DNA of 64,000 bases from Candidatus Poriferihabitaceae bacterium (GTDB lineage: Bacteria > Pseudomonadota > Gammaproteobacteria > Arenicellales > Poriferihabitantaceae): contig OZ241969.1 in NCBI GenBank assembly GCA_965204165.1, forward strand, positions 888,735 through 952,734. Reading direction: 5' to 3'. Below are positions 5,525-39,566 of this stretch, in pieces. A program made the position numbers and the translations under genes. The notes below the pieces were generated by a model that had not been told where the DNA came from, did no database searches, and saw nothing but the letters and a program-made list of their open reading frames with translations. Each line of letters begins with the position of its first letter. Positions within the stretch are counted from its first letter, which is position 1.

Positions 5525-5552
5525 TTGACAGCGCGGCCGGGGCCGATAAAAT
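5525..5552 (+). promoter_or_regulatory. sigma70-like promoter TTGACA-N16-TAAAAT (copy 1)
   Basis: TTGACA at 5525-5530 and TAAAAT at 5547-5552. The identical motif and spacing are conserved at 32883-32910. It stands out in GC-rich DNA. Confidence 0.55.
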
Positions 5553-5555
5553 GCC

Positions 5556-8500: not shown

Positions 8501-10802
8501 CACGGAATACGCGGCGACGGTCGGGAACGCGGTCACGCACGTGAAGCTGACGGCGACGGCGGGCGAGGCCGGCGCGACGCTGAAGGTCGGCAAGGGCTCG
8601 AGCCTCGCGGCGGCGGCGGACGGGTCGGCGAGCGCCGCGATCGCGCTCAACGTGGGCGCCAACGCGCTCAGGGTGGAGGTGACGGCCGGGGACGGCACGG
8701 TGCGGACGTACACGGTGACGGTGACGCGCCGGGCGGCGCCGCTGACGGCGCGGCTGCAGGCCGCGGTCCAGGAGCATGACGGGGAGACGCCGTTCATGGT
8801 CGAGCTGGTGCTGAGCGAGTCGCTGGATTCGGGAAGCGGGTGGCCTTCGGCTGCGTCGTTCGACGTGAAGGGCGGGAGCGTGGCGAGCGTGCGGCGGTTC
8901 CGGCCGTACCTGTACCAGGTCCACATCCAGCCGAAGTCGTGGCGCGACGTGACGGTGACGCTGGCGGGCGGGCGCGGCTGTGAAGAAGAGGGCGCGATCT
9001 GCACGGCGGACGGCAGGTCGGTGTCGAACACGTCGACGCTGGCCTTCGGCGGCCCGGTGCGGATCCGCATCGAGGGCGCGCGGGCGAAGGAGGGCAAGGA
9101 TGCAAACCTGGACTTCGCGGTGACGCTGAACCGCGCGGCGGCGCATGACGTGTCGGTGGACTACGCGACCAAGGACGAGACGGCGACGGCGGGGGCGGAC
9201 TACACGGCCACGTCGGGCACGTTGACCTTCGCGGCGGGCGAGACGGCGAAGACGATCCGCGTTCCGGTGCTGGACGACGCCATCGACGAGGGCAGGGAGG
9301 TCATGCGGATGATGCTGTCGAACCCGAAGGGCGCGTACCTCCGGGGCGTCCACACGAAGGCGCGGGGCATCATCGTGAACGACGACGCGCTGCAGCGGGC
9401 GTGGCTGTCGCGCTTCGGCCGCATGGCGGGAAGCCACGTGACGGACGCGGTGTCCGGCAGGCTCGAGGGCGACCTTGCGCCGGGCACCCACGCGACGCTT
9501 GCGGGCCAGGCGCTGGACCTGTCGGGCGGGGAGGACGGCGATCCGCTGATGGACGTGCTGACGGGCCTTGCCCAGCGTTCCGGTTCACCGGCGCCGGACG
9601 ACGGCGATCCGTTCGCGCGCCTCGGCGCCGGGGACCGCTGGAATGATTCCGGCCTTGCGGGAACAGCGGGAACAGCGGGAACAGCAGGAAACACGGGAAA
9701 AATCTCGATGACGGGCCGCGAGGTCCTGCTGGGGAGTTCGTTCCACACGGCGGGCCGGATGGACGGCTCTGGTCCGGGCCTCGCGGCCTGGGGCCGGGTG
9801 GCGCATGGCGGCTTCGACGGTGAGCAGGCTTCCGATACGGGCCGCCTCGGCATCGACGGCGAGGTGACGACGGGGACCCTGGGGACGGACGCCGACTGGG
9901 GCCGGATGCTGGCCGGGGTGGCGATCGGCCTGAGCGAGGGCGAGGGCACGTTCGAGGACTCCGGCGCGGAAACCGGTTCGAAGGGCAGCCTGGAGAGCAC
10001 GATGACCACGGTGAGCCCCTACGGCCGCTACGAGGTCACCGACCGGGTGTCGGCCTGGGGCCTGGTGGGCTGGGGCACCGGCGACATGACGGTCTCGTTC
10101 GACGACGGCACGGCCCAGGTGAGGACGGACCTGTCGCTGCGGATGGGCGCCCTGGGAGCCCGTGGGGTACTGCTGGAGCAAGGCGGGAAATACGGGAAAG
10201 ATGGCATGGACCTCGCGCTGAAGGCGGACGCGCTGTACGTGCGGACGGACTCCGACAAGGCCGCGAACTCCGTAGCGACTGAAGCGAAAACAAACCGGGT
10301 GCGGTTGCTGCTGGAGGGCGGGCGGACGTACGAACTGGATGAAGGCAGGACGCTCCGGCCCGTGCTGGAACTCGGCCTTCGCCATGACGGCGGGGACGCG
10401 GAGACGGGGACGGGCGTGGAGATCGGGGCGGGCGTGAGCTACGCCAACCCGCTGACGGGCCTGTCGCCGACCTTCGGGACGCCTTCGGGTTCGGCGGACC
10501 GTCTGTGGGGCGCGAGGGACGCCCGGGGGCTGGCGCCTGGAGGTAAGTTCGATGCCGGCCGGGGTCTCCGGGCCGAGGCGGGCTACGGGATTCCGGTGTA
10601 CGGCGGCCGGTACACGGGCACGCCGAACGTGGGCTATGGCGCGTCGGACGGCGGAGCGACCGACTGGCGCGTGGGCTGGCGGCTGGAGCCGGTCCGGACG
10701 GAAGGGCCGCGGATCGGTCTCAGCCTGGACGCGGTGCGGAGCGAGCCCGCGGATGGGGACGCGAGGCACGGCGTGCTGCTTCGGGGGGCGATCCGATGGT
10801 AG
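5556..10802 (+). CDS. giant autotransporter-like surface protein 1 (FN3, Calx-beta and cadherin-like passenger; C-terminal beta-barrel)
   Basis: 1748-aa ORF.
- Signal-peptide-like RRLSLLLPVLALLAGAFFLFVPVSSAVA.
- FN3-like segments (LSLTWTA...GYDVHY...GTAYRVRVRAKN).
- Calx-beta-like segments (VNYWTEDGTAKAGQDYTG...GETRKS..IIDDGVEDSGETF).
- Cadherin-like beta-sandwich segments (LSGL...FAPATTAYTATV...VRL...YRVTVTR).
- C-terminal glycine/aromatic beta-strand region ending RGAIRW.
The start is uncertain: TTG 5556 is the only in-frame start upstream of the signal peptide. Confidence 0.85.
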   Translation: MPAASGQRPAASGQRPAASGQRPAASGQRPAARTASPGDRLPRLGSPRRPDARTGRSRARRLSLLLPVLALLAGAFFLFVPVSSAVANHKFPVPSNIQVTGGNASVTISWDAVPNAGNYFIEGRQEGVTNTISETIPATSQTWGPSDVWPTGNGNQALGTRNGVTYQMRVRVLSNGAHSFSEWSQWFDFTPAPLPPPSTPPASPTNLRVSPGNGKLSLTWTARRQYLDAVTGYDVHYTSLSAGYAPDTWPALDESEFYRYRPGNGWVAVSRTGDTASQAISGLTPGTAYRVRVRAKNRVGVSDWVVIKGTPSGTAPGVVVPALASADVLVSNIGQTTRSGASGLRTFVTGQTFTTGGPAPGYFLQSIEVLMNFNFSSLTSAQRSKIRAELWSADSNGKPSAKLYDLVLPTNFKTGINAFAAPPNAKLNANTAYSVVWYTIDSAFAGLSVRGTNSHGHDTSGSGWSIADDGFYKTANTPAGGGYLTGFRLKIRVNGTLVPNTVSLSASPNPVREGSPVTVTATLGGPLSEDVSIPIATASVANEITIPKGQTTGTYVHTAGDAPDGEIKREQMVVLNRLLKQMRPAIGLGDPYLVNVQVLDENADPPRVSVSDAKGWEQLNNYGRLCFEFTLDRAASHEVSVNYWTEDGTAKAGQDYTGKSPLSLGFAPGETRKSRCISIIDDGVEDSGETFYVVLGNPPEGAILGRDRGTGTIYNHEPTSLSGLTAEGASGEDGPFTALDIGTFAPATTAYTATVPHGTTHVRLVPASATNRYLQLMTGLEGARMTQVAFGGGTGPAVALAVGENVLVVKTQFNGQRQTYRVTVTRQEAPAAVAVSLSATPNPVAEGAAVTVTATLAEALDEAVTVPLTVTRGTSEDGDHGSLASITIPVGGTSATGTISTTDDADGDDETFTVALGSLPSGLAAGSASSVEVTITDSGVQEQQQQQQRTAPLTLSGLSGSTSTDGSDFGGTLDIGTFAPGTTEYAATVGNAVTHVKLTATAGEAGATLKVGKGSSLAAAADGSASAAIALNVGANALRVEVTAGDGTVRTYTVTVTRRAAPLTARLQAAVQEHDGETPFMVELVLSESLDSGSGWPSAASFDVKGGSVASVRRFRPYLYQVHIQPKSWRDVTVTLAGGRGCEEEGAICTADGRSVSNTSTLAFGGPVRIRIEGARAKEGKDANLDFAVTLNRAAAHDVSVDYATKDETATAGADYTATSGTLTFAAGETAKTIRVPVLDDAIDEGREVMRMMLSNPKGAYLRGVHTKARGIIVNDDALQRAWLSRFGRMAGSHVTDAVSGRLEGDLAPGTHATLAGQALDLSGGEDGDPLMDVLTGLAQRSGSPAPDDGDPFARLGAGDRWNDSGLAGTAGTAGTAGNTGKISMTGREVLLGSSFHTAGRMDGSGPGLAAWGRVAHGGFDGEQASDTGRLGIDGEVTTGTLGTDADWGRMLAGVAIGLSEGEGTFEDSGAETGSKGSLESTMTTVSPYGRYEVTDRVSAWGLVGWGTGDMTVSFDDGTAQVRTDLSLRMGALGARGVLLEQGGKYGKDGMDLALKADALYVRTDSDKAANSVATEAKTNRVRLLLEGGRTYELDEGRTLRPVLELGLRHDGGDAETGTGVEIGAGVSYANPLTGLSPTFGTPSGSADRLWGARDARGLAPGGKFDAGRGLRAEAGYGIPVYGGRYTGTPNVGYGASDGGATDWRVGWRLEPVRTEGPRIGLSLDAVRSEPADGDARHGVLLRGAIRW
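5558..5651 (+). repeat. heptanucleotide tandem repeat (GCCAGCG) x13 plus partial unit
   Basis: Hand count gives perfect units starting at 5558 with 7-nt period through 5648, then GCC. In the ORF frame this reads (PAASGQR)n. Confidence 0.95.
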
Positions 10803-19699: not shown

Positions 19700-22600
19700 A
19701 TGGAAAACGAACCTGAAAGTCGATTTGTTACCGGGCGTGATATAAATTTCTTGAAGGCCAGAGGTGTGACGTGTGCCCGGCGCCTGGCCGGCGCGCAACG
19801 GACGGCCCCACCAGCTTCGTCAGACCCCTCCCGGTTTGACAGGCGCCCCAGGCGCTCGCGCAGCCGTTTTCCCGGTTTCTCCCGTCTCCTCACCGCTCTT
19901 GCGGCACTGGCCGGTGCGCTCACCCTGTTTGCCGCCGCACCGGAGCCGGCGCAGGCGCAATTCGTCCCGCCGCCGGACACCCCGCAAAACGTGAAAGTGA
20001 CAGTGGGAAACGCAAAACTGACGCTGACATGGCAGGCGCCGTCGTCCTGGGGCAGCGGATCGGCGATCGGCTACCAGGTCGACTGGTTTTCCGGTCCTGC
20101 AGCTCCGGCTCATACATCGGCCGAATGGCAAAGGGTCGTCTATAACCAGCAGTTCGAGGCCTCTGCCACCGAGACCAGCTTCACCTTTTCCGGCAACGTT
20201 TACTCCCGCGTCCACGATGGCACGAATTGGGAGCGCGGTCATCACTCGGTCGCCAACGGGAACCAGTATCACCTGCGGTTGCGGGCGGCCAGCACGAAAC
20301 CCGGTGACAACACGGATATTTTGGTAAGCGACTGGGTGACGGTCAGCGGCACGCCGCAGGGGACGCAGCAGACCTGGTCCACGAACGCGAACCTGAGCGC
20401 ACTCACGGTGGGCAGCGCCACGAGTTCGGGCGACCAATACACGGATTTCAGCATCGGGACCTTCGGGGCGACGGTGGCGAGCTACACGGCGTCGGTGGCG
20501 AACGACCAGACGCATGTGAAGGTGACGCCGACGGTTGCGGACACCGGCGCCACGGTGGGGGTGCGCAAGGGGACGTCGGGGAATTTCGATTCGGTGACGA
20601 GCGGCCAGGCGAGCGGCGCCATCGCGCTCGACGTGGGGGCGAACACGCTCGTGGTGCGGGTGACGGCCGAGGACGGGTCGACCAAGGACTACACGGTCAC
20701 GGTGACGCGGCGGCAGGCGCAGCAGACCTGGTCCACGAACGCGAACCTGAGCGCGCTCACGACGGGCAGCGCCACGAGTTCGGGCGGCCAATACACGGAT
20801 TTCAGCATCGGGACCTTCGGGGCGACGGTGACGAGCTACACGGCGTCGGTGGCGAACGACCAGACGCATGTGAAGGTGACGCCGACGGTTGCGGACACCG
20901 GCGCCACGGTGGGGGTGCGCAAGGGGACGTCGGGGAATTTCGATTCGGTGACGAGCGGCCAGGCGAGCGCGGCGATCGCGCTCGACGTGGGGGCGAACAC
21001 GCTCGTGGTGCGGGTGACGGCCGAGGACGGGTCGACCAAGGACTACACGGTCACGGTGACGCGGCGGCAGGCGCAGCAGGCTCGGTCCACGAACGCAAAC
21101 CTGAGCGCGCTCACGGCGAGCACGTCCACGAGTTCCGGAGGCACGTTCAACGGGTTGACGCTGACGCCGTCGAGCTTCTCGGCTTCGAGGACGAGCTACA
21201 CGGCATCGGTTTCGAACACGCAGACATATTTGAAGCTGACGCCGACGGTTGCGGACACGGGCAAGGCTACCGTGACCGTGCAGGGCACTTCGGTGACAAG
21301 CGGCACGGAGAGCGGAGAGATCCTGCTCAGCGTTGGGTCGAACACGCTCACGGTTCGGGTGATGGCCGAGGACGGGTCGACGGTGAAGGACTACACGGTC
21401 ACCGTCACGCGGAGAGCGGCGCAGCAGGCCCGGTCCACGAACGCAAACCTGAGCGCGCTCACGGCGAGCACGTCCACGAGTTCCGGAGGCACGTTCAACG
21501 GGTTGACGCTGACGCCGTCGAGCTTCTCGGCTTCGAGGACGAGCTACACGGCGTCGGTTTCGAACACGCAGACATATTTGAAGCTGACGCCGACGGTTGC
21601 GGACACGGGCAAGGCGACGGTTGGGGTGCGCAAGGGGAGCGGGGGCAGTTTCATGCCGGTAACGAGCGGCAGCGCGAGCGGAGCGTTCGCGCTGGACGTG
21701 GGCGCGAACCCGATCACGGTGCGGGTGACGGCCGAGGACGGGTCGACGACGAAGGACTACTCTGTCGCCGTCACGCGGCAGGCGCAGCAGGGCCCCGCCC
21801 CCACGGTGATGCTGTCGGCCGCGCCGAACCCGGTAGACGAAGGTTCCTCGGTGACGGTGACTGCGACGTTGTCCGCGGCCCTTTCGAGCCAGGTGACGAT
21901 ACCGCTGACGATCGCCGACGATACGGCCGAGCCCGAGGATCACGGGACGCTGACGGGCATCGCGATTGCCTCCGGCGCGACCAGCGGCACGGGGACGATC
22001 ACCACGGCGCAGGACGCCGACACCGAGGACGAGACCTTCACGGTGGCGCTGGACGCGGCGAACCTGCCGGCGGGGCTGCGTGCGGGCGTTCCGGCCTCGG
22101 TGGAGGTGACGATCCGCGAGGGCGAGGTTCCTGCGGACACGTCCACGAACGGCGTTGCGCCGGATCCACGACGCGGGGCGGTTCAGGACGCGGTGAAGCG
22201 TGCGCTGGCGGCGTCGGCCAGGCGTGCGATGTCGAGCGCGCTGGAGAACATCGGTGCGCGGTTCGGCGACATTGGCGCGAGCGGGCTATCGCTGGCGGGC
22301 CGGTGGGTGCCTCTGGAGGGCGGCGCCGCGAAGGCGGCCCTGTATGGAGGCGGCGGGTCCGGGTTCTGCGCGGCAGCGGGGTCCCCCGGCTGCGCGGCGG
22401 GATGGAGCCGTTCGATGACGGCGGGCGAGCTGTTGGGGGCGAGCGCGTTCTCGCTGCACCTGGGCGCGTCGGAGGGTGCGGAAAACGCGAATGGCGCCGT
22501 TCCGCCGGGGCCGCTGTGGTCGGTGTGGGGCCGCGGGGATCTCGGGACCTTCGAGGGCCGTGGGGACCCCGGCCTTGGCTACGACGGGAAGCTGCGCACG

Positions 22601-23605
22601 GGCTGGGTCGGGTTTGACGCGCGGGCCGGGACCTGGGTGGCGGGCCTGGCGGTGAGCCACGGGGCGGGGGAGGCGGACTATGCATTCGCCGATGACGGCC
22701 TGCCGGGGGGTCGCCTGGAGACGGAGCTGACGTCGTTCTATCCCTACGGGCGGTGGACGCTGGGCGACGGCCTGGAGTTGCGCACGGTGGCGGGCGCGGG
22801 CTGGGGCGAGGCGGAGCACGGGCCGGCGGGCGCGGCGCGGGAGTCCGGGGACCTGACGATGCGGATGGCGTCGCTGGGGGTCAGGCGTGCGCTTGCGGAT
22901 GTCGGCGGGATGGAGATCGCGCTGCGCGCGGACGGGAGCGTGACGCGGATCGGGACCGACGGCGGTCCGGACGCGATCCACGGCCTGACGGCGGACGGCT
23001 GGCGGCTGCGCGCGGGCGTGGAGGCGTCGCGGCGCCTTGCGCTGAGGGGCGGGCGGATCCTGGAGCCGTTCCTGGAGGCGGCGGTCCGGCGTGACGGCGG
23101 CGACGGTCTTGAGGGCAGCGGGGTGGAGCTTGCCGGCGGGGTGCGCTATGTGGCGCCGGGTGTGTCGGTGGAGGCGCGCGGGCGCTGGCTTGCGGCGCAC
23201 AGCGAAGACGGGGCGGAGGAGACGGGGGTGAGCGTGACGGCCCGGGCCGGTCCGGGTTCGGACGGGCGGGGGCTGTTCGTGGCGCTGAGTCCGCGCTGGG
23301 GCGCGGGGACGGGCGGCGCCGTGGCGCTGTGGGGCGCCGGGCTGCCGCGGCCGTCGGGTTCGGGCGGCGGGGGCGTCCTGGACGCGCGGGTGGGCTACGG
23401 GATCGCGTTGCGCGACGGGGCGGGTCTGCTGACGCCGTTCGCGGAGGCGGGTCTCGGGGACGGCGAGAGCCGTCGCCTGCGTCTCGGGACGGGGTTCGAG
23501 AGGCGGCGCACGGGCCTTCGGCTGGAGGTTGCGGGCGAGCGCCGCGAGGACGCGTCGGCGGAGCCGGAGCATGCGCTCCGGCTGGACCTGGGGCTGCGGT
23601 TCTGA
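19700..23605 (+). CDS. giant autotransporter-like surface protein 3 (FN3, 4 tandem cadherin-like domains, Calx-like domain, beta-barrel)
   Basis: ATG 19700 follows AAGGAG. The leader RFPGFSRLLTALAALAGALTLFAAAPEPAQA is signal-peptide-like. FN3-like KLTLTWQAPSSWGSGSAIGYQVDW. Four 116-118 aa repeats. C-terminal beta-domain ending LDLGLRF. Confidence 0.85.
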   Translation: MENEPESRFVTGRDINFLKARGVTCARRLAGAQRTAPPASSDPSRFDRRPRRSRSRFPGFSRLLTALAALAGALTLFAAAPEPAQAQFVPPPDTPQNVKVTVGNAKLTLTWQAPSSWGSGSAIGYQVDWFSGPAAPAHTSAEWQRVVYNQQFEASATETSFTFSGNVYSRVHDGTNWERGHHSVANGNQYHLRLRAASTKPGDNTDILVSDWVTVSGTPQGTQQTWSTNANLSALTVGSATSSGDQYTDFSIGTFGATVASYTASVANDQTHVKVTPTVADTGATVGVRKGTSGNFDSVTSGQASGAIALDVGANTLVVRVTAEDGSTKDYTVTVTRRQAQQTWSTNANLSALTTGSATSSGGQYTDFSIGTFGATVTSYTASVANDQTHVKVTPTVADTGATVGVRKGTSGNFDSVTSGQASAAIALDVGANTLVVRVTAEDGSTKDYTVTVTRRQAQQARSTNANLSALTASTSTSSGGTFNGLTLTPSSFSASRTSYTASVSNTQTYLKLTPTVADTGKATVTVQGTSVTSGTESGEILLSVGSNTLTVRVMAEDGSTVKDYTVTVTRRAAQQARSTNANLSALTASTSTSSGGTFNGLTLTPSSFSASRTSYTASVSNTQTYLKLTPTVADTGKATVGVRKGSGGSFMPVTSGSASGAFALDVGANPITVRVTAEDGSTTKDYSVAVTRQAQQGPAPTVMLSAAPNPVDEGSSVTVTATLSAALSSQVTIPLTIADDTAEPEDHGTLTGIAIASGATSGTGTITTAQDADTEDETFTVALDAANLPAGLRAGVPASVEVTIREGEVPADTSTNGVAPDPRRGAVQDAVKRALAASARRAMSSALENIGARFGDIGASGLSLAGRWVPLEGGAAKAALYGGGGSGFCAAAGSPGCAAGWSRSMTAGELLGASAFSLHLGASEGAENANGAVPPGPLWSVWGRGDLGTFEGRGDPGLGYDGKLRTGWVGFDARAGTWVAGLAVSHGAGEADYAFADDGLPGGRLETELTSFYPYGRWTLGDGLELRTVAGAGWGEAEHGPAGAARESGDLTMRMASLGVRRALADVGGMEIALRADGSVTRIGTDGGPDAIHGLTADGWRLRAGVEASRRLALRGGRILEPFLEAAVRRDGGDGLEGSGVELAGGVRYVAPGVSVEARGRWLAAHSEDGAEETGVSVTARAGPGSDGRGLFVALSPRWGAGTGGAVALWGAGLPRPSGSGGGGVLDARVGYGIALRDGAGLLTPFAEAGLGDGESRRLRLGTGFERRRTGLRLEVAGERREDASAEPEHALRLDLGLRF
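20366..21790 (+). repeat. four tandem 348-354 bp coding repeats (cadherin-like beta-sandwich units)
   Basis: Unit starts (CAGCAG) at 20366, 20720, 21074 and 21422. Units 1 and 2 are nearly identical. Units 3 and 4 are nearly identical in the first half. The second half of unit 4 resembles units 1 and 2. Confidence 0.9.
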
Positions 23606-30497: not shown

Positions 30498-30502
30498 CCC
30501 CG

Positions 30503-30823
30503 CTACCTCAGGCGAAGGACCATGCCTCCTCCAAGGTCCAGCTCCACGCGCCACTCGCCGTCACCGGCAGCGGCCGGTGTCGGCGCCGGCGCCGCCTTCG
30601 GAGACACCGCGGGCAATTCCATAAATTCAACCAGCGGTCCGGCAGAGCCATTGCCCGCCGCGGCCTCCTCGCCACGGAACCGCTTCCGCCACTTGTAGAG
30701 CTGGGTGCTGGACAGCCGCCGCTTCCGGCAAAACTCCTTCGGCCCCTGATCCCCGGCCTCGAATTCCGTTACCAGGCGTCGCCACTGCCTGGGGGTGCGG
30801 ACCACCTTCTTGCGTTGCGTCAT
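30503..30823 (-). CDS. tnpA: IS66 accessory protein TnpA
   Basis: MTQRKKVVRTPRQWRRLVTEFEAGDQGPKEFCRKRRLSSTQLYKWRKRF, an HTH-type ORF1 of IS66. Confidence 0.85.
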   Translation of the reverse strand: MTQRKKVVRTPRQWRRLVTEFEAGDQGPKEFCRKRRLSSTQLYKWRKRFRGEEAAAGNGSAGPLVEFMELPAVSPKAAPAPTPAAAGDGEWRVELDLGGGMVLRLR

Positions 30824-30910
30824 CGTTTTGAGTCTCCGGTTTCGAAATGGAAGACGCACGATAAGACCCTGACTTCGTCAGTGGAACAACGCCTCAGAAT
30901 GGCCGGTTAC

Positions 30911-31705: not shown

Positions 31706-31876
31706 GGCTGCACCTCCCAGCGGCTTTCCAGGCGGCGCATGGCCTCGCCCATCAGTTCCGGCGAGCCCTCCAGATACCAAGCATAATGCCGACGAATCAG
31801 TAATGCCAAGCGGGGCGTGACAGAGCCTTGATTCAACTGGATTCAGGACCGTTTTCACTCGGCATTACTGTTGACC

Positions 31877-32096
31877 TTATTTACCGTTCAGCAACTCCAT
31901 CAGACTGTCGCGGACGCCGGGGAAGTTCCCTGGTCTGATCGACGGCGGCACGGTGGCCTTGAGGATGTCCAGTTTCTCGGCCGGGCTCGCATGGAGGTAC
32001 ATTTCTGTGCTCGCGAGGGTTGCATGACCCAGCCAGAGCGAGACCTTTCGGATGTCCCCGGTAGCATGCAGGACCGCCATGGCCGAGGAATGACGC
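31877..32096 (-). pseudogene. C-terminal fragment of a tyrosine recombinase (second RIT, subunit B-like)
   Basis: RRHSSAMAVLHATGDIRKVSLWLGHATLASTEMYLHASPAEKLDIL.... No N-terminal part is present. Confidence 0.7.
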
Positions 32097-32124
32097 CTAC
32101 CTCTTGCAAGAGGTAGTCGTCATT
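32089..32124. repeat. 36-bp near-perfect palindrome at the head-to-head junction of two recombinase fragments
   Basis: GAATGACGCCTACCTCTTG|CAAGAGGTAGTCGTCATTC with one mismatch. Each arm contains the R-H-S codons of a recombinase fragment. Confidence 0.85.
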
Positions 32125-32336
32125 CGACGGCCTGCAGTCTGCTTCAGGCGGAGGTCGACCTCAACACGATCAGGGCCTGGCTCGGCCATGCGAAACTGGA
32201 CACCACCAACATCTACGCTGAAATCGACATTGAGCGGAAGGCGAAGGCGATGGGACTGTGCGACGCATCGGAACCCGGGCCAACCCGGCCGTGGAAGGAG
32301 AACAGGGGGCTGATGGCCTTCCTCGAAACACTGTGA
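32118..32336 (+). pseudogene. RIT subunit C, C-terminal part (continuation of 27292-28047)
   Basis: RHSTACSLLQAEVDLNTIRAWLGHAKLDTTNIYAEIDIERKAKAM...LMAFLETL*. The stop lies directly before the right RIT terminal repeat. Confidence 0.8.
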
Positions 32337-32882
32337 TTGCAGAAAATTATGCAGCGGACAAATTCCGGATCGCCTTGTCTTTCGGGGCTTCAGGATCCGT
32401 CCGCTGCATTTTTTGGTCCGCTGCATTATTTTCCATGACGCATTGCACATCTGCCAAAGTCGGTGTCCCCACTCGGCCAGTATTGGCGGCGCCGCCGGTC
32501 CTGCCGACCATCGGCTGGATTGCTGCCGCCGGGTTTTCCACCCGGAAACCTCACTATTCGGGCCAAAACAAACACAACTAACTCATAATCATTCGGTTAT
32601 GGTCCGGTCCCGCCGCCATGGGTTGCGGGAACGGCGCCGCTGAAGTTCCCGTGCCGCGCGGCCCGGGTTCAATAGAATGAAGTGCTGATGCAGATGCCCG
32701 CAACGATGCCTGCAACCTCCACACCGGGAGAAACCGAAATGACGGATCCAATGCCAGAAGAACGCGCCCGGGAACCGGGCTCCATGGCCGCGAGCCACCC
32801 GGCCCTGGCGGTGGTTTCCGCTGTCCCGGAAGACGGGAAGAATGAATCCGCGGGAAGTTTCGGGAGAAACTGCAGGAAAGAG

Positions 32883-32910
32883 TTGACAGCGCGGTCGGGG
32901 CCGATAAAAT
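32883..32910 (+). promoter_or_regulatory. sigma70-like promoter TTGACA-N16-TAAAAT (copy 2)
   Basis: TTGACA at 32883-32888 and TAAAAT at 32905-32910, the same arrangement as 5525-5552. Confidence 0.55.
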
Positions 32911-32915
32911 GCCTT

Positions 32916-33029
32916 GCCAGCGGCCAGCGGCCAGCGGCCAGCGGCCAGCGGCCAGCGGCCAGCGGCCAGCGGCCAGCGGCCAGCGGCCAGCGGCCAGCGG
33001 CCAGCGGCCAGCGGCCAGCGGCCAGCGGC
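32916..33029 (+). repeat. heptanucleotide tandem repeat (GCCAGCG) x16 plus GC
   Basis: Hand count gives perfect units from 32916 through 33027. ATG 33030 follows immediately. Confidence 0.95.
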
Positions 33030-35753
33030 ATGACGTGTGCCCGGGGCCCGGCGCCCGGCTGGCGTATCCCATCCCATCCGGCATCATCGGCCTCGGCAGG
33101 TTCCCCGCGGCCTGACCCCCATCCCGGGCGCGCCCGCGTCCGCCGCTTCCCGCTGATCCTCCCCGTCCTGGCGCTGCTGGCCGGGACGCTCTCCCTGTTC
33201 GCGCCGGTGGAGGCGCAGGCCACTCCGGGCATCCCGGGGAACGTCCAGGTGACCGCGGGGGATGCGGCGCTGACGCTGACCTGGCAGGCGCCGTCGACCT
33301 GGGGCAGCACATCGGCGCGGGGCTACGAGATTGACTGGTACGCCGGCGCCACCGCCCCGGACAGCGATTCGCACGATTGGAAACAGGCGAATTCCGTTGG
33401 TTCTCCGATTTCGGCCAGCGCGACCAGCTATACGTTTACCGGCGCCTATGGCAGCCATACGGTAGCCAACGGCACCAAATACTGGTTGCGGATCAGGGCG
33501 ACGAGCGTCCATCCCACGGATAGCGACGACTACCTGGCCGGACATTACGCGACGCCTGTGAGCGGCACGCCGCAGGCGCAGACCGCGCCCGCGGCGCCCA
33601 CGAGCCTGACCGTCACCGCGGGCGACACCCGGCTGTCCCTGAGCTGGACCGCGCCTTCGGGCACGCTGACGGGCTACGACGTGCACTACACCTCGGCGGC
33701 CGCGACCGGCAGCAATTCGGTCGCGAACGACGCGGCTGTGCAGACCGGCGCTGCGTCGGCGGGCTGGGTGGCGGTCTCGCGCGGCACCGAGACCTCGCCC
33801 CCGACGGCTTCGCAGACGATTTCGTCGCTGACCAACGGCACCGCCTACCGGGTGCGGGTGCGGGCGAAGAACGCCGCCGGCGGCGGCGCCTGGGTGTTCG
33901 GCACGGGTACGCCGAAGACCCCCACCATGGAGTTCGAACTGGACACCTTTCTGGTGGTGGAGAGCGACACGGACCCCGAGGCCGCCAAGGTGCTGATCAG
34001 CCCGGCCCCGGCGGAGCAGACGACGGTGCAGATCCGGGTGCGCTCGTACGGCAACGCGTCGCCGGCGGACTTCACCCTGACCACGACGACGCTCACCTTC
34101 GCCGCGGGCGACACGGAGAAGTCCTTCGGGGTGCTTGCGGCCGCGGACATGTTGACCGAGGGCAACGAGGTCGTCACGCTGGAACTGGTTGCGGTGGCCA
34201 GCGCCCCCTACACGCTGGGGACGCAGGACAGCATAGAGTTCGTCATCGTCGACGACTCTTTCGAGCCGGGCGAGCCGGGTCTGACGTCGCTCACAGCGGT
34301 GGAGTCGGGCGCCAACAAGCCGACGGCGACGACGCTGAGCTTCACGGTGGCATGCGCGACGGCAGACTCCGGCTTTCCGCTCACCGATTACCACGTGCAT
34401 GCCGTGGCCCAGGGCGTCGCGGGGCTGGAGCGCACCTATTTTTTCCCGGAGAGCAAGTGCGGTTCCAACGGTCCGGTGACGCTGACGGGCCTGCCGCTGC
34501 GCCCGACGGCGACGACCTGGCGGGTCCGGGCGCGGGCGCGGGCCATCCGCGGACACAAAGGGGTTTGGTCGAGTACGGTCGACCTGGCGACGCTGGCCGA
34601 CCCCGCGCAGCAGAATGCCGCGGCGCTGACGGCGACGTTTGCGGGCGTGCCTTCGGCGCATACGGGCAACGACCGGAGGTTCAGCTTCACGGTGAACTTC
34701 AACGTTTCGGTGGACGGCGGCCAGGCGCCGACCAGGCGGTCGTTCGAGACCTCCGAAGGCTCGGTCATGCAAGTGGTGCGGGTCTCGGGGAAGAAGTGGA
34801 CGGTGCATGTCCGGCCGCATTCGTGGCGCAAGGTCGGGATAGCGCTCCGGGGCGGTCGGAGCTGCGACGACCCGCACGCGGTGTGCGCGACGGGCGGGCG
34901 GGCGCTGACGACCAGCCCGCAGGCGAGCGTCGGCGGCGCGGCGCGCATCCGGGTGAGCAGCCACTGGGCCAGGGAGGGCACGGAAAAGCCGGTCCGCTTC
35001 ATCGTGAAGCTCAACCGCGCGGTGTCGCACGAAGTGCGGGTGGACTACGCGACGAAGGACGGCGTGGGCATGCTCGGGGGGAACGCGCCGGCGACGGCGG
35101 GGTCGGACTACACCGCGACCTCCGGCACGCTGGTGTTCGAGGAGGGCGAGCGGCGCAAGATGGTCGACGTCGCGGTGCTCGACGACAGCATCGACGAGGG
35201 CTCGGAGTATTTCCTGCTGGCGCTGTCGAACCCGCAGGGCGCCCATCTGCCGCACCGGCAGGTCGAGAGGGTGGGTCTCATCCGGAACGACGACGCGCTG
35301 CAGCGGGCGTGGCTCTCGCGCTTCGGCCGCACGGTGGGAAGCCACGTGACGGACGCGGTGTCCGGCAGGCTCGAGGGCGACCTTGCGCCGGGCACCCACG
35401 CGACGCTTGCGGGCCAGGCGCTGGACCTGTCGGGCGGGGAGGACGGCGATCCGCTGATGGACGTGCTGACGGGCCTTGCCCAGCGTTCCGGTTCACCGGC
35501 GCCGGACGACGGCGATCCGTTCGCGCGCCTCGGCGCCGGGGACCGCTGGAATGATTCCGGCCTTGCGGGAACAGCGGGAACAGCGGGAACAGCAGGAAAC
35601 ACGGGAAAAATCTCGATGACGGGCCGTGAGGTCCTGCTCGGGAGTTCGTTCCACACGGCGGGCCGGATGGACGGCTCGGGCCCCGGCCTCGCGGCCTGGG
35701 GCCGGGTGGCGCATGGCGGCTTCGACGGCGAGCGGGTGTTAGGACTCACATAA
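33030..35753 (+). pseudogene. autotransporter-like surface protein 2, truncated in the beta-domain by transposon insertion
   Basis: MTCARGPAPG...RRFPLILPVLALLAGTLSLFAPVEAQA leader, with FN3 and Calx-like domains. Sequence 35288-35736 is nearly identical to 9378-9833 of protein 1. Homology then stops at ...HGGFDGE and the frame ends RVLGLT* inside foreign DNA. Confidence 0.85.
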
Positions 35754-35922
35754 TTTGAACCTGGCTGTCCCGGATTATCTGGAAGGCAAGTGGGACGGTT
35801 TGGCCTGGATTGTGCCAACTTTATTTCTGGCCCGGATTATTTCGGGATTTCTTCCCGGCAGTTTTCAGGAAGCCTGAGGAGAAGCGCGCCAGGGCCGGGA
35901 AGGCCGCGGTCCCGCCCGGGAT

Positions 35923-36771
35923 TCAGAAGACGGTGGCCCGGAGCAGGTCGTTCCAGTCCTTGACGCCCTCGGGGCGGATTCGCACGACGCGTGGGTCCGT
36001 CCGGAGGGATTCGGCGCACCGGTCCCCGGTGGGGTCGGCGTCGTACCCGCACAGGATGGTGCGGACGCGGGGGTCATGGAGCCACGGGGGCAGTCTGGCG
36101 GTGGCCCCGGCGGTGGACAGGATGCAGTCGGGTTTGCGGGACAGGGGCAGGAGCCATGCGGACAGGGCGTCGATGGCGGACTCGACGATGAGGACGGTTC
36201 CGCCGACGGGTTCCCGGTTGTCGGGCCGCGTCGGGCAGGTGATCCGGAAGGCGCCGCGTTTCCGGCTGGAGCCCCTGGCGAGGCCCCGGAAGACGGTTTT
36301 TCCGGATCGGCTGTCGAACCCCACGAGTTCGGCGCCCACGGTGCCGCCGTCGGTGCCGCGCATGACGAACACGGCGTTCCCGCGGCGGTCGGCGGAGACG
36401 ATGCCCTCCTGGCGGCAGCGCTCGACGAGGTTTTCGTCGATGGACCGATGATCCTGCAGGTACTTCCGCACGGCGGCCCAGCGATCCCCGTCGGCGGGTT
36501 CCACGGTTCCCGGGGGCGCGATCCGCTCGAGGACGTCGATGGCACGGGGGAACTGGCACCGGCAGGCGTGCATGACCAGGTCGATGGCGCCGCCGCCGCC
36601 CTGCTGGAGGAGGTGGTCGTAGAACCGGGTTCCGTCGATGCCGATGACGCTGCCGGTCTTCTTCCAGCGGGTCCGGTCGCGGGGATCCCGGCGGTAGCCG
36701 ACGGCGGCGGCGACGGTGTCGAGCGGGAGGTCGCGCAGGCGGCGCAGCCGCTCCGGATGGTAGCGGTTCAT
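35923..36771 (-). CDS. Toprim domain protein (primase-like)
   Basis: MNRYHPERLRRLRDLPLDTVAAAVGY.... Toprim Glu in LIVESAIDALS and DxD in CGYDADPTGD. The ATG overlaps the upstream stop. Confidence 0.7.
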   Translation of the reverse strand: MNRYHPERLRRLRDLPLDTVAAAVGYRRDPRDRTRWKKTGSVIGIDGTRFYDHLLQQGGGGAIDLVMHACRCQFPRAIDVLERIAPPGTVEPADGDRWAAVRKYLQDHRSIDENLVERCRQEGIVSADRRGNAVFVMRGTDGGTVGAELVGFDSRSGKTVFRGLARGSSRKRGAFRITCPTRPDNREPVGGTVLIVESAIDALSAWLLPLSRKPDCILSTAGATARLPPWLHDPRVRTILCGYDADPTGDRCAESLRTDPRVVRIRPEGVKDWNDLLRATVF

Positions 36772-37568
36772 GTCCCGGTGTCGTCGACGGCCTTCTGGAC
36801 GTCGCTGGTGTCCACCAGGTCGCGCTTGCCGATGGCGGCGGCGCACAGGGCGAGGTGGGCGACGCGGTCGATGCGCCGGGGGACGCCGTTGGTGGCCTGT
36901 GCGATGGCCTCGACGGCCTCGTCCCGGAACAGGGGGACGGCGGCGCCGGCGAGCTTCAGGCGGTGCTCGAGGTATCCGGTGACCTCCTCGCGTTCGAGGC
37001 CGTCGAGATGGCAGCGCACGACGACGCGCTGGCTGAGGGACTCGTAGACGGCCATGGCGAGGCGCTTTCGCAGCTCGGTGTGGCCGGCGAGGAGGAGGCA
37101 CAGGCGGTTGTCGGAGTCCATGCGGTAGTTGGTGAGCAGGCGGAGTTCCTCGAGCAGGCCGGCGGCGAGGAGATGGGCCTCGTCGATGACGAGGAAGGGC
37201 ATCTGGCGGCCGTCCTTGACCTGGCGGGAGACTTCCTCGCGGATGGCGTGGAAGGCCTGGGCGCGCTGCTTCGTCAGGGGCAGCCCGAAGGCCTGCAGGA
37301 TGGCGGTGTAGAGGTCGACGACGCTGCCGGTGGTCAGGGAGATGTACCGGTGGCGGTAGAGGCCGGGATGGAGGTTGCCTGCGATCCGGCGGCAGACGGT
37401 GGACTTGCCGCAGCCGGGCTCGCCGGTGAGCAGGCCGATGCCGCGCAGTTCCAGGAGGTGGCGGATCCGTGCGTCGGCCTCCTCCTGCCCCCTGGTCGGG
37501 AACAGTTCGTCGATCCCGATGGAGGGCTCGAAGGGGTAGCGGGTGAGTGCGAAGTGGGTCCTGTACAT
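36768..37568 (-). CDS. AAA+ ATPase (ExeA/TniB-like transposition partner)
   Basis: Walker A GEPGCGKS and Walker B FLVIDEAHLL. Sits directly after the DDE transposase. Confidence 0.85.
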   Translation of the reverse strand: MYRTHFALTRYPFEPSIGIDELFPTRGQEEADARIRHLLELRGIGLLTGEPGCGKSTVCRRIAGNLHPGLYRHRYISLTTGSVVDLYTAILQAFGLPLTKQRAQAFHAIREEVSRQVKDGRQMPFLVIDEAHLLAAGLLEELRLLTNYRMDSDNRLCLLLAGHTELRKRLAMAVYESLSQRVVVRCHLDGLEREEVTGYLEHRLKLAGAAVPLFRDEAVEAIAQATNGVPRRIDRVAHLALCAAAIGKRDLVDTSDVQKAVDDTGT

Positions 37569-37569
37569 G

Positions 37570-38892
37570 TCATTCCTCCGTGTCGGATGATTCGGGATGA
37601 TCGGGACCGGAACCGGCGTTCCGGAAGGACAGGCCGTCCGACGCGGGGCGGCGCCGGATGCGGGCGTTGGCGTGGATGTCGACCAGCGTGGCGATGCCGG
37701 CGCCCTTGCCCTGGTGGACCACGGCCAGGGGCCGGGACGGCGGGGCCGCGGGGTCGTACCGCAGGATCACGTACTCCCCGATCAGCCAGGCATCGACCTC
37801 GTAGACGCGGGCCTCGAAGTGCACGGTGCGGTCCTTCCTGACCTTGCGCCGCTTCTCGAGCAGGAACAGGTCGGCGAGGTCCATGCCGGGGTCCACGAGG
37901 CGAACCCCGGAGGCGCACAGGGCCCACTGCTCCAGCGGGGTCCGGCCGCCCAGGCCCTGGTGGGGATTGCGGTGGTACTCCCCCTCGATCCAGGCCTGCA
38001 GCTTGCCGTTGAGGGCATCGAGGCTCCGGAGGTCCTCCGGGACCAGCCCGGAGAGGAACTGCTGGCGAACCGTCCTGAGCCATCTCTCCATCTTTCCCTT
38101 CCCCGCCGGCTGGAAGGGCTTGGCGTGGATCAGTGCGGTCCCCAGCCGCGCGCAGACGATCTCCAGGGCCTTGGAGCGGTAATTGGCCCCGTTGTCGCAA
38201 TAGAGCCTGTCCGGGATGCAACGCCTCTCGATGGCCAGGCGGAACACCGGCAGGAAGGCCGCCACGCTCTCGGAGAAGGCGAAGGCCGCATGGGGGATCA
38301 CCCGGGTGGCGTCGTCCAGGAACGCGATCAGGTAGACCTTGCGGGCATGGCCCCGGCGGTCCCGGACCCGGGGGCCGTGGAGCACGTCCGACTGCCACAG
38401 CTCCCCCGCCCACTCGTAGGCGAAGCGCCGACGGTCGACGCCCCCGGGACCGTTCCCCGGCGGCGGGTCCATCAGGCCCAGCGACTTCAGCATCCGGCCC
38501 ACCGTGGACCGCGGCAGCCGGACCGACCGCGGCACCAGCCCCCGGTCATGGGCCTGCGCGATCAGCCTGCGCACGCTCAGGTGCGGCTCGGCCCGCTTCA
38601 GCCCCGCCAGCGCCTCCACCGTCTCCGGGGACAGGCGGCGCTGCCCGTGGCGATCGGCCCGCGCCTTCGGAACCAGGGCGTCGAACCCGTCCCTGCGGTA
38701 GTCCTGCAGCCAGCCCCGGATGGTCTCCGACGCCACCCGGGTGCGATCCGATCCCGGGATGTCCCACGTCCGCTCCGACAGCTCCCGGGCCTTCGGCGCC
38801 ACCTTGCCATGGGGCTCCGGCAACAGGGTCGCTATGACGCGGTACCGGAACAGCGCGATTTCGTTGGGTTCGGGGGGATTCTTGCGGCTCAT
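37570..38892 (-). CDS. DDE (rve) transposase with N-terminal HTH
   Basis: MSRKNPPEPNEIALFRYRVIATLL.... Catalytic D in WQSDVLHG, D in YCDNGANYRS, E in GKGKMERW. GGAGG SD. Confidence 0.9.
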   Translation of the reverse strand: MSRKNPPEPNEIALFRYRVIATLLPEPHGKVAPKARELSERTWDIPGSDRTRVASETIRGWLQDYRRDGFDALVPKARADRHGQRRLSPETVEALAGLKRAEPHLSVRRLIAQAHDRGLVPRSVRLPRSTVGRMLKSLGLMDPPPGNGPGGVDRRRFAYEWAGELWQSDVLHGPRVRDRRGHARKVYLIAFLDDATRVIPHAAFAFSESVAAFLPVFRLAIERRCIPDRLYCDNGANYRSKALEIVCARLGTALIHAKPFQPAGKGKMERWLRTVRQQFLSGLVPEDLRSLDALNGKLQAWIEGEYHRNPHQGLGGRTPLEQWALCASGVRLVDPGMDLADLFLLEKRRKVRKDRTVHFEARVYEVDAWLIGEYVILRYDPAAPPSRPLAVVHQGKGAGIATLVDIHANARIRRRPASDGLSFRNAGSGPDHPESSDTEE

Positions 38893-39566
38893 GGCGGTCC
38901 TCCATGGGGTCCGGATGGTTGTGGGACCGATTCTGATCCCCCAGCCGACCCCGAACCATGGCCGTTTCCTGTTGGCGGCCCCCTCGATGGATTCCAGCGC
39001 CGCGGCGGCAGACGGAATCCAACAGGAAACGTGATCGAGCCCAGCTGCCCGTGACAGTGCGCCCGAAGGTCCCGGAGCGCCGTCTGCGAATCCAGCCGGG
39101 CGCGCAGGTCCGCCAGCGTCGGCTTCATGCCGAAGAACCGCGGATGAAGGCCGGGCAGCATCCGCAGCAGGTCCTCCATCCACCCGCACCGCCGGCGCAC
39201 CAGCCGCCATGGAATCACCGGATCCACATGGGAGTCAAAAAAGAAACGGACCGCCGCCATCTTCCCGGACGCCTCGGCCACCACCGCGATCTCCTCGATC
39301 GCCTCCAGGGTCCCGCGCACCCCGCACGCCAGACAGTCGGGCAGCGCGCTGAACGTGGTGTGGCAGAACGCGCAGTACCACCGCCTCACCCGCATCCCCG
39401 CCGGCTCCACCCGTTCGTAGGTCCCGTGCCCGCACATCCCGCATCCCGCCCCCAGGCCCAGAAGGCACGGCGGGGGGCTTGCCTCCCGCCAGCCCTCCCG
39501 GATAACATACTCCTCAGCGGTCAGTCCCGTTTTATGTCGAAGTTGAATGGGCCCTCCACCGCTCAC
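38889..39566 (-). CDS. hypothetical Cys-rich (zinc-ribbon) protein, first gene of the transposon operon
   Basis: GTG start. CGMCGHG...RRWYCAFCHTTFSALPDCLA. The stop overlaps the transposase ATG (ATGA). Confidence 0.5.
   Translation of the reverse strand: MSGGGPIQLRHKTGLTAEEYVIREGWREASPPPCLLGLGAGCGMCGHGTYERVEPAGMRVRRWYCAFCHTTFSALPDCLACGVRGTLEAIEEIAVVAEASGKMAAVRFFFDSHVDPVIPWRLVRRRCGWMEDLLRMLPGLHPRFFGMKPTLADLRARLDSQTALRDLRAHCHGQLGSITFPVGFRLPPRRWNPSRGPPTGNGHGSGSAGGSESVPQPSGPHGGPP

What the first reader, a model, noticed from the sequence alone, without database searches (positions are those of the whole stretch)
32883..33032. Second copy of the switch: (GCCAGCG)16 ending directly at the conserved ATG of adhesin 2
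The promoter motif is the same, but the tract has 16 units rather than 13. Here an ATG (33030) follows the tract immediately and opens MTCARG..., which matches VTCARR in paralogue 3, so it is probably the ancestral start.

If transcription starts at the predicted promoter, the whole 5' UTR is the repeat tract and there is no recognisable SD. If it starts upstream, the cassette ORF (ATG 32682) is in frame through the tract into the adhesin. The two copies therefore place the same repeat in different coding contexts. This argues the tract acts at the level of frame, UTR length or DNA structure, and that unit number is variable.
Basis: partly seen in the sequence, partly recalled or inferred. Interest (0 to 1): 0.75.

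Follow-up and report, generated by a model that had tools for sequence, protein, structure and literature searches.

The report
Heptamer repeat switch before truncated adhesin
A perfect 16-copy run of the 7-base unit GCCAGCG sits between a promoter-like motif and the start codon of a surface-adhesin gene. This layout recurs with different copy numbers in relatives, so it is probably a slippage-driven expression switch, but this copy controls a gene that a transposon has cut short.

Summary
(GCCAGCG)16 occupies 32916-33027, followed by GC and an ATG at 33030. A TTGACA-16-TAAAAT motif lies 5 nt upstream. A second copy of this cassette (13 units) is at 5525-5651.

The promoter-like box / (GCCAGCG)n / GC-ATG-ACG-TG(C/T) (MTCAR...) module recurs at 17 or more loci. 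These precede FN3/cadherin-like/Calx-beta autotransporter adhesins in sponge-metagenome and other assemblies, with N from 3 to about 31.

Near-identical loci differ in N (7 versus 9), and N mod 3 shows no bias. The ORF upstream of the tract does not look coding. I therefore read ATG 33030 as the ancestral start and the tract as essentially the whole 5' UTR.

The tract is self-complementary. As single-stranded DNA or RNA it folds into one long G-C hairpin with bulged A residues.

Best reading: this is a slipped-strand contingency locus that works like the heptamer 5'-UTR rheostat of the Haemophilus HMW adhesins. It is not a homologue of that system.

Copy 1 has lost the ATG, so it can only be translated through the tract, as a frame switch.

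It has no beta-barrel, so this copy is probably a relic. No effect on expression has been tested.

The parts
32613..32882 (+). Upstream cassette shared with copy 1 (5261-5524). It does not look coding.
   Evidence: blastn gives 94% identity over 400 nt and the alignment is. GC3 in the ORF frame is 0.67. The region is not conserved in related loci.
32883..32910 (+). Promoter-like motif TTGACA-16 nt-TAAAAT. The predicted transcription start falls in the first repeat unit, near 32916-32919.
   Evidence: It matches the consensus at 11 of 12 positions and is identical in copy 1 except for one spacer base. CTTGAC and TATAAT blocks are conserved directly upstream of the tract at 17 related loci, mostly with a 20-21 nt spacer.
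32916..33029 (+). (GCCAGCG)16 plus GC: a perfect heptanucleotide repeat tract that is self-complementary and forms a hairpin.
   Evidence: TRF reports 16.3 copies at 100%. As DNA it folds at -49.2 kcal/mol, z = -3.5, into one long hairpin with A bulges.
33030..33032 (+). Conserved ATG, the probable ancestral start codon (MTCAR...).
33030..33221 (+). Long signal peptide of 64 aa: a basic, Pro-rich N-terminal extension, then RRFPLILPVLALLAG...VEAQA.
   Evidence: The translation is. The nucleotide sequence is conserved across loci.
33030..35753 (+). Adhesin 2 ORF (907 aa; FN3 x2, Calx-beta x2). It is truncated and has no beta-barrel.
   Evidence: Pfam hits are. Homology to copy 1 stops at 35733 (= 9825 of copy 1). 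No remainder of the gene is present in the window.
35734..39210 (-). Inserted mobile element that truncates adhesin 2. Its end reads TGTTAGGACTCAC... and it carries TniB-like (36768-37568) and TniA/Mu-type transposase (37570-39210) genes. Its far end was not mapped.
5525..5651 (+). Copy 1 of the module: the same promoter-like motif plus (GCCAGCG)13. There is no ATG after the tract, and TTG 5556 is in frame with adhesin 1.
5556..10802 (+). Adhesin 1, an intact 1748-aa autotransporter ORF whose only open route to a start codon runs back through the tract.
   Evidence: Its C-terminus is homologous to paralogue 3 (E = 1e-30), and that C-terminus matches TIGR01414.
19766..23605 (+). Paralogue 3, which has no tract. 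It reads ...GATATAAATTTCTTGAAGGCCAGAGGT-GTG ACG TGT GCC CGG, with a single degenerate unit in front of the homologous start.

Best explanation
The tract is a hypermutable simple-sequence repeat. It is part of a conserved module placed in front of a family of paralogous autotransporter adhesins.

The module is: promoter-like box, then (GCCAGCG)n, then GC-ATG.

In the arrangement seen at 32883-33032, the tract lies downstream of the -10 box and upstream of the ancestral ATG. It is therefore transcribed and makes up essentially the whole 5' UTR, with no Shine-Dalgarno sequence.

Each strand of the tract pairs with itself, giving six G-C pairs per seven bases with a bulged A. This favours slipped-strand mispairing at replication, which changes N. 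In the mRNA it gives a 5'-terminal hairpin whose length scales with N and whose base lies 2 nt from the AUG.

I infer that N sets the expression level of the adhesin gradually or past a threshold. The likely route is mRNA stability or processing (for example RNase III), transcription through the structured DNA, or ribosome access to the start.

Where the ATG has been lost (copy 1 here, and L130-L132), the same tract lies inside the only possible reading frame. There it would act as a classical 7-nt frame switch.

In this window the gene downstream of the tract has been cut off by a transposon, so this copy is most likely a non-functional relic of the system.

Shown: the tract, its position, conservation of the module, variation in N among related loci, hairpin potential, and the truncation.
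Inferred: the transcription start, hypermutability in this strain, and any effect of N on expression.
For: - The tract is perfect and lies 5 nt after an 11-of-12 promoter match.
- The same module (CTTGAC...TATAAT, 1-3 nt, tract, GC-ATGACGTG) is present at L050, L102, L118-L129, L133 and L134, with N = 4-24.
- Variants without the ATG occur at L130-L132, with N = 9-31.
- Homologues with only 1-2 units exist (P0001, P0107, P0145).
- Among 15 ATG-type loci, N mod 3 is 7/5/3, so there is no frame constraint.
- L120, L122 and L128 share 800 identical upstream bases and 100 identical downstream bases, yet have N = 7, 9 and 9.
- The upstream ORF does not look coding. Several homologues are called from MTCARR.
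- The tract folds as a hairpin: DNA -49.2 kcal/mol with z = -3.5, and RNA about -5.3 kcal/mol per added unit.
- In H. influenzae, a transcribed heptamer repeat upstream of two paralogous adhesin genes controls expression through a 5'-UTR hairpin and RNase III (PMC12721329).
Against: - No transcription start, expression or population data exist for this organism.
- In most relatives the -35-like and -10-like boxes are 20-21 nt apart. This is outside the usual sigma-70 range, so the promoter assignment is uncertain.
- My folding series predicts almost no change in AUG accessibility with N: mean unpaired probability 0.33-0.38, with only an even/odd alternation.
- The RNA fold of tract plus start region is not much better than composition-matched shuffles (z = -1.65).
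- N values from short-read or low-coverage long-read assemblies may be wrong for long tracts.
- Ten of the loci were retrieved with a pattern that included the ATG, so that subset cannot count towards ATG conservation.
- Adhesin 2 is truncated, so selection cannot currently act on this copy through the adhesin.
Confidence: 0.55

Rival explanations
1. This is a translational frame switch at this copy. Translation would start upstream (GTG 32682, ATG 32688, or the ATG 32909 / TTG 32914 next to the -10 box). The tract would be coding (ASGQRPA repeats), and changes of N by one or two units would switch the adhesin off, as with Neisseria opa or Haemophilus lic1.
For: - The 7-nt unit shifts the frame.
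- The upstream ORF is in frame with adhesin 2 at N = 16.
- Copy 1 and L130-L132 have no start after the tract, so they must be read through it.
- In L130, an ATG just before the tract is in frame with the signal peptide at N = 17.
- Three start codons in three different frames precede both window tracts.
Against: - At copy 2, the conserved ATG follows the tract directly.
- The upstream ORF has GC3 of 0.67, and its differences between cassette copies are mostly non-synonymous (the P0004 comparison is).
- Upstream regions are unrelated between loci apart from the two promoter-like boxes.
- N mod 3 is unbiased in ATG-type loci.
- ATG 32909 overlaps the -10 box and TTG 32914 lies 4 nt after it. 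Neither would be on a transcript from that promoter.
- The tract is open in all frames, so being in frame carries no information.
Confidence: 0.12
2. The tract mainly acts as a shared stretch of homology and a recombination joint. It would let promoter regions and variable adhesin bodies be exchanged between paralogues by gene conversion or inversion. Tract length would be a by-product.
For: - In the window, the upstream cassettes are 94% identical while the adhesin bodies diverge straight after the signal peptide.
- L102 and L123 share 800 identical bases downstream, but their upstream flanks differ beyond the promoter, and N is 18 versus 6.
- L120 and L122 are identical upstream and diverge from about 100 nt into the gene.
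- HMW repeat counts also change through recombination between hmw1 and hmw2 upstream regions (PMC12721329).
Against: - Breakpoints at repeats are also what assembly errors produce.
- In L120/L122 the mosaic boundary lies about 100 nt downstream of the tract, not at it.
- A recombination role does not explain why the tract always sits exactly between the -10 box and the ATG.
Confidence: 0.13
3. The tract is a neutral microsatellite or a relic. A slippage-prone GC-rich heptamer expanded from a single unit next to the start codon. It persists without regulatory function, and here it sits in front of a dead gene.
For: - (GCCAGCG)n arrays occur in many unrelated GC-rich genomes and contexts: more than 117 stretches in the genome scan.
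- Paralogue 3 and several homologues manage with 0-2 units.
- Predicted AUG accessibility hardly depends on N.
- Adhesin 2 is truncated.
Against: - The tract is perfect, with no interruptions, although the gene is truncated. This implies recent slippage or homogenisation.
- The same position relative to promoter and ATG is kept across many diverged paralogues and organisms.
- Expansion to 9-31 units recurs at many loci of one surface-protein family, which is the signature of contingency loci.
Confidence: 0.2

Closest known systems
Haemophilus influenzae hmw1A/hmw2A (ATCTTTC)n 5'-UTR repeat rheostat (Dawid et al. 1999, from my own knowledge; PMC12721329, read here)
   Same: - Both have a heptameric repeat downstream of the promoter and upstream of the start codon of a large surface adhesin.
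- In both, two or more paralogous loci in one genome share the upstream region but carry different repeat numbers.
- In both, the repeat is part of a long 5'-UTR hairpin (predicted here).
- Recombination between paralogous upstream regions is seen or suspected in both.
   Different: - The repeat sequences are unrelated: GC-rich GCCAGCG against AT-rich ATCTTTC.
- Here the repeat pairs with itself, not with a separate G-rich arm.
- Here the tract abuts the ATG (2 nt) and leaves no Shine-Dalgarno sequence.
- The adhesins are type Va autotransporters, not two-partner-secretion HMW proteins.
- The organism is an uncultured-type GC-rich bacterium, not a Pasteurellaceae pathogen.
- RNase III dependence and an inverse relation between N and expression are untested here.
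Moraxella catarrhalis uspA2 (AGAT)n and uspA1 poly(G) 5'-UTR repeats
   Same: Both have a repeat in the transcribed leader of an autotransporter-class adhesin gene, where repeat number tunes expression rather than frame.
   Different: - Those are trimeric autotransporters with tetranucleotide or homopolymer units.
- Their leaders contain normal ribosome-binding sites downstream of the repeat.
Neisseria opa (CTCTT)n and Haemophilus lic1 (CAAT)n translational switches (established knowledge)
   Same: - The unit length is not divisible by 3, and the tract lies in the region encoding the N-terminus or signal peptide of a surface component.
- As in lic1, several alternative start codons in different frames lie upstream. 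This resembles copy 1 (5551, 5556) and the loci without the ATG.
   Different: At the copy under review the conserved start codon follows the tract, so the tract is outside the ORF. Only the derivative loci without the ATG fit this class.

Membership tests
Simple-sequence-repeat contingency locus (slipped-strand phase variation) | A long, uninterrupted tandem repeat of a short unit | tested here: met
   There are 16.3 perfect copies of a 7-nt unit, and 13.4 in copy 1.
Simple-sequence-repeat contingency locus (slipped-strand phase variation) | The tract lies in the promoter, leader or 5' coding part of a surface-structure gene | tested here: met
   The tract lies between the promoter-like motif and the ATG of an FN3/Calx-beta adhesin with a signal peptide.
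Simple-sequence-repeat contingency locus (slipped-strand phase variation) | Repeat number differs between closely related strains or within populations | tested here: inconclusive
   This is met in relatives: L120 has 7 units while L122 and L128 have 9, with 800 identical upstream bases. Across the family N ranges from 3 to 31. No second strain or read-level data were available for the source genome itself, and no close orthologue of adhesin 2 was found.
Simple-sequence-repeat contingency locus (slipped-strand phase variation) | Repeat number changes expression | not testable with these tools
   This needs reporter fusions or expression data.
HMW-type transcribed heptamer 5'-UTR rheostat | The repeat is transcribed as part of the 5' UTR | tested here: inconclusive
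   The position 5 nt downstream of a -10-like box and directly upstream of the conserved ATG implies this. No transcription start has been mapped, and the box spacing is atypical in relatives.
HMW-type transcribed heptamer 5'-UTR rheostat | The repeats take part in a long RNA hairpin | tested here: met
   This is a prediction only. The tract folds on itself into one hairpin, with about -5.3 kcal/mol per added unit. The architecture differs from hmw, being self-pairing.
HMW-type transcribed heptamer 5'-UTR rheostat | RNase III processing is needed for expression and for repeat change | not testable with these tools
   This is an experimental question.
HMW-type transcribed heptamer 5'-UTR rheostat | Homology to the hmw locus: HMW1A/B/C two-partner secretion and the ATCTTTC repeat | tested here: not met
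   The passenger has FN3, Calx-beta and cadherin-like domains, with an autotransporter barrel in the paralogues. The repeat unit is unrelated. This is an analogue, not a member.
Intragenic frame-shifting repeat switch (opa/lic1 type) | The tract lies downstream of the functional start codon, inside the ORF | tested here: not met
   For copy 2, the conserved ATG follows the tract, the upstream ORF does not look coding, and N mod 3 is unbiased. For copy 1 (5556-5651) the feature is plausibly met, because there is no start after the tract.
Classical (type Va) autotransporter adhesin | A C-terminal beta-barrel translocator domain | tested here: not met
   Adhesin 2 ends at 35753, homology to copy 1 stops at 35733, and no remainder is in the window. 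The feature is met for paralogue 3 (TIGR01414, 24.9 bits). It is met for copy 1 through homology to paralogue 3 (E = 1e-30), although copy 1 itself gave no direct model hit.

The most novel reading that the evidence does not exclude
A self-complementary heptamer repeat that forms the entire leader of the mRNA would be a new kind of dual-mode switch in host-associated but non-pathogenic bacteria, namely relatives found in sponge microbiomes.

In ATG-type loci, its length would set expression through a 5'-terminal hairpin. This could involve RNase III cutting that yields a near-leaderless mRNA.

In loci that have lost the ATG, the same tract would act as a frame switch.

Across paralogues it would also serve as the joint for shuffling promoters and adhesin bodies.

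Together this would give a whole family of autotransporter adhesins combinatorial, heritable variation.
Probability: 0.2. Interest if true: 0.75.

Novelty: new variant of a known kind. Interest (0 to 1): 0.5.

Why it matters
Repeat-driven contingency loci are known almost only from a few host-adapted pathogens such as Haemophilus, Neisseria, Campylobacter and Moraxella.

Here a recognisable module precedes many paralogous adhesins with eukaryote-like domains. The relatives turn up in marine-sponge metagenomes (MKWU01, Aplysina aerophoba; PMC5649159) and in other uncultured assemblies.

If repeat number does tune expression, stochastic surface variation would be part of how symbionts deal with an animal host. 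The case would also be a second, independent heptamer leader switch to set beside the HMW system, and it would be simpler because the repeat is the whole leader.

For genome annotation, the tract is open in all six frames. Gene callers therefore extend ORFs through it, as in P0002, P0003 and P0010, and produce false N-termini.

For this particular copy the practical importance is low, because the gene is truncated.

Tried and rejected
1. A genome-collection scan with four repeat units was too generic. Only L050 and L102 were relevant.
2. A metagenome scan for the window's own -10/tract junction gave 0 hits. The second scan, with the tract/ATG junction, gave 10 loci.
3. The first protein search was swamped by ASGQRPA low-complexity matches. 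The second, without the tract, found no close orthologue of adhesin 2 and not even the source protein. Strain-level comparison of this exact locus was therefore impossible.
4. Exact-protein look-ups for P0004 (the third cassette of the same genome) and for a window integrase were not on record. I could not read the third cassette's DNA or name the organism.
5. tblastn of an island protein against plasmids gave only about 32% identity to proteobacterial plasmids, which does not help with taxonomy.
6. Rfam finds nothing at the locus.
7. Minus-strand ORFs across the tract were rejected: their GC3 is 0.67-0.78.
8. A model in which N gates AUG accessibility is not supported by thermodynamic folding.
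9. A literature search for GCCAGCG repeats, and for phase variation in sponge symbionts, found no prior description.
Full report
**1. What is in the sequence**

Positions 32916-33027 are 16 perfect copies of GCCAGCG. They are followed by GC and then by ATG at 33030. Five bases upstream of the tract lies TTGACA-16 nt-TAAAAT (32883-32910), an 11-of-12 match to the sigma-70 consensus.

The same 40-nt motif-plus-tract-start occurs once more, at 5525, with one base different and 13 units. About 300 nt upstream of each tract are 94% identical between the two copies.

The only slip is that 32682 is GTG; the first in-frame ATG is at 32688.

**2. The gene behind the tract**

From ATG 33030 the ORF encodes a 64-aa signal peptide. 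It consists of a basic, Pro-rich extension followed by RRFPLILPVLALLAG...VEAQA. FN3 and Calx-beta domains follow.

Copy 1 (5556-10802) and paralogue 3 (to 23605) are full-length. Paralogue 3's C-terminus matches the autotransporter barrel model TIGR01414. Copy 1's C-terminus is homologous to it (E = 1e-30).

Adhesin 2 is not full-length:
- Its similarity to copy 1 stops at 35733, 20 nt before its stop codon.
- The sequence that follows (TGTTAGGACTCAC...) leads into TniB-like and Mu/TniA-type transposase genes on the other strand.
- No remainder of the barrel is present in the window.

Upstream, a 7.5-kb element bounded by 101-nt inverted repeats ends at 32440. It carries tandem tyrosine recombinases and an IS66. 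The module under review therefore sits between two mobile elements, in front of a gene fragment.

**3. Where translation starts**

The tract has no T, and its complement yields no stop codon. It is open in all six frames, so an ORF that runs through it proves nothing.

The upstream 'cassette ORF' does not look coding:
- Its GC3 is 0.67, against 0.86-0.88 for genes in this window.
- Differences between cassette copies, including P0004 from the same 4.99-Mb contig, are nearly all non-synonymous.
- Minus-strand ORFs across the tract also look non-coding.

Evidence from other loci points to the ATG after the tract:
- The junction GCCAGCG-GC-ATG ACG TGC GCC CGG CGC is found at L050, L102, L118, L119, L133 and L134. 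None of these was selected for the ATG.
- It is also found at L120-L129, which were selected with it.
- Several homologues are called by gene finders exactly from MTCARR (P0086, P0125, P0130, P0134).
- No other ATG, GTG or TTG lies between this ATG and the hydrophobic core of the signal peptide.

Paralogue 3 carries GATATAAATTTCTTGAAGGCCAGAGGT-GTG ACG TGT GCC at the homologous place. This looks like the unexpanded state, with a single degenerate unit. Whether paralogue 3 starts at this GTG or at ATG 19700 remains open. ATG 19700 has an AAGGAG box upstream, but the stretch from there to the GTG has GC3 of only 0.36.

**4. The module is a family trait**

An alignment of the 120 nt upstream of 19 tracts shows only two conserved blocks. 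These are CTTGAC(A/G) and (GTG)TATAAT, the latter 1-3 nt from the tract. In most relatives the spacer between the blocks is 20-21 nt. In the window it is 16 nt, and in L130/L131 about 14 nt.

N is 4, 5, 5, 5, 6, 6, 7, 9, 9, 9, 10, 12, 16, 16, 18 and 24 in ATG-type loci, and 9, 17 and 31 in loci without the ATG. N mod 3 in 15 ATG-type loci is 7/5/3, as expected if the tract is outside the ORF.

L120, L122 and L128 come from different assemblies. They share 800 identical upstream bases and 100 identical downstream bases, but have 7, 9 and 9 units. These tracts are short enough for short reads to span.

L102 and L123 share 800 identical downstream bases but have 18 versus 6 units, and their flanks differ beyond the promoter boxes. 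This could reflect recombination or an assembly artefact.

Several relatives come from the Aplysina aerophoba sponge metagenome MKWU01 and from its bin 'Rhodospirillaceae bacterium bin65'. The source organism itself was not identified. It is a 4,990,822-bp contig in NCBI/ENA.

**5. The second context**

Copy 1 has CCG AAC TGC GTC in place of ATG ACG TGC GCC, plus further indels. The stretch between its tract and the signal-peptide core is 29 nt shorter than in copy 2 (2 mod 3). The ancestral frame ends at TGA 5705.

The adhesin frame has no start after the tract. It is open back through the tract to TTG 5556, with a TAA at 5547. ATG 5551, TTG 5556 and the upstream ORF sit in three different frames.

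The same state without the ATG recurs in L130-L132 and P0005/P0007/P0011. In L130 an ATG just before the tract is in frame with the signal peptide at N = 17.

An intact 1748-aa ORF with genic GC3 argues that copy 1 is expressed. If so, its tract is translated and acts as a frame switch. This conflicts with use of the adjacent -10-like box, because those start codons overlap or abut it. I could not resolve this conflict.

The 13-versus-16 difference is 21 nt, so it does not explain the different contexts.

**6. Physical properties of the tract**

Without its A, the unit is a self-complementary hexamer repeat. As single-stranded DNA the tract folds into one hairpin, with 2- and 4-bp G-C helices separated by single A bulges (-49.2 kcal/mol, z = -3.5 against shuffles).

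As RNA, each added unit contributes about -5.3 kcal/mol. The base of the hairpin lies 2 nt from the AUG.

Such structures favour replication slippage. In mRNA they are potential RNase III substrates once N exceeds roughly 7-8; that threshold is my inference from the known requirement for about two helical turns.

Predicted AUG accessibility barely changes with N. A simple occlusion model is therefore not supported.

**7. Mechanism and comparison**

The best-supported reading is a slipped-strand contingency locus whose tract is the mRNA leader. Its closest functional analogue is the (ATCTTTC)n leader of H. influenzae hmw1A/hmw2A. That system has:
- a heptamer unit;
- two paralogous adhesin loci with different N;
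- repeats that are transcribed;
- a long 5'-UTR hairpin;
- RNase III processing;
- expression that falls as N rises (PMC12721329).

This locus is not a member of that system. The repeat, the hairpin design, the secretion type and the organism all differ.

Three rivals remain:
- a frame switch at this copy (0.12);
- a recombination joint (0.13);
- a neutral or relic microsatellite (0.20).

**8. Verdict**

The feature is real, non-random and correctly described. The 'cassette ORF' alternative is not supported.

The function as a switch remains inferred. This particular copy fronts a truncated gene.

I rate it a new variant of a known kind, with interest 0.5. Most of that interest rests on the family-level pattern rather than on this copy.

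Noticed in passing
window 24970-25070 and 32340-32440 (element 24970-32440): Inverted repeats of 101 nt (95% complementary) bound a 7.5-kb element. It holds three tandem tyrosine-recombinase genes (25123-28137, like a recombinase-in-trio element) and a fourth on the other strand (30878-31858). An IS66 is inserted in it (inverted repeats at 28373-28403 and 30880-30910; genes 28514-30554).
   Followed up: partly
window 35734-39210: A transposon end (TGTTAGGACTCACATAATTTG...) with TniB-like and Mu/TniA-type transposase genes truncates adhesin 2. The other end of the element and the fate of the adhesin's barrel region were not located.
   Followed up: partly
window 18715-19443: A LuxR-family regulator with an autoinducer-binding domain lies directly upstream of paralogue 3, the adhesin without a tract. 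That paralogue may be under quorum-sensing control rather than repeat control.
   Followed up: no
window 18014-18183: A group II intron domain D1-D4 match (85.6 bits) is the only Rfam hit in the window.
   Followed up: no
window 20364-21790: Four 354-nt tandem repeats (copies 94-98% identical) encode cadherin-like beta-sandwich domains in paralogue 3. They are likely substrates for variation in domain number.
   Followed up: no
window 42965-43338: Tandem repeats of 96 nt (48-nt sub-period) lie at the start of a low-GC (50%) ORF with a Swt1-like HEPN domain (42922-44115).
   Followed up: no
window 33030-33164 and homologous loci (L050, L102, L118-L127, L133, L134): The first ~130 nt of the coding region (the N-terminal extension of the signal peptide) are conserved at the nucleotide level, including third codon positions, across paralogues and organisms. 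The passenger region diverges quickly. The cause is unknown and could be concerted evolution or an RNA/DNA-level constraint.
   Followed up: partly
L023, L042, L043, L055, L076, L077, L091, L094, L095, L112, L113, L116 (Marichromatium spp.); about 35 contigs of Planctomycetota MAG maxbin.317: (GCCAGCG)n arrays are common in unrelated genomes. In Marichromatium they are followed by a conserved GCCAGGAGATTGAACCGCAAAG element at 12 or more loci. The Planctomycetota MAG has dozens of mixed GCCAGCG/ACCAGCG/GCCAGCA arrays, often at contig ends.
   Followed up: no
P0126 (homologous adhesin, ENA): This homologue carries a variant heptamer tract that reads (SAVSGQR)n, which corresponds to (GTCAGCG)n. 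The module therefore tolerates change in the unit sequence.
   Followed up: no
window 5558, 32916 and the P0004 locus on the same 4.99-Mb contig: All three cassettes of the source genome have N equal to 1 mod 3 (13, 16 and about 7). This is probably detection bias for the third one, but I did not exclude a constraint.
   Followed up: no
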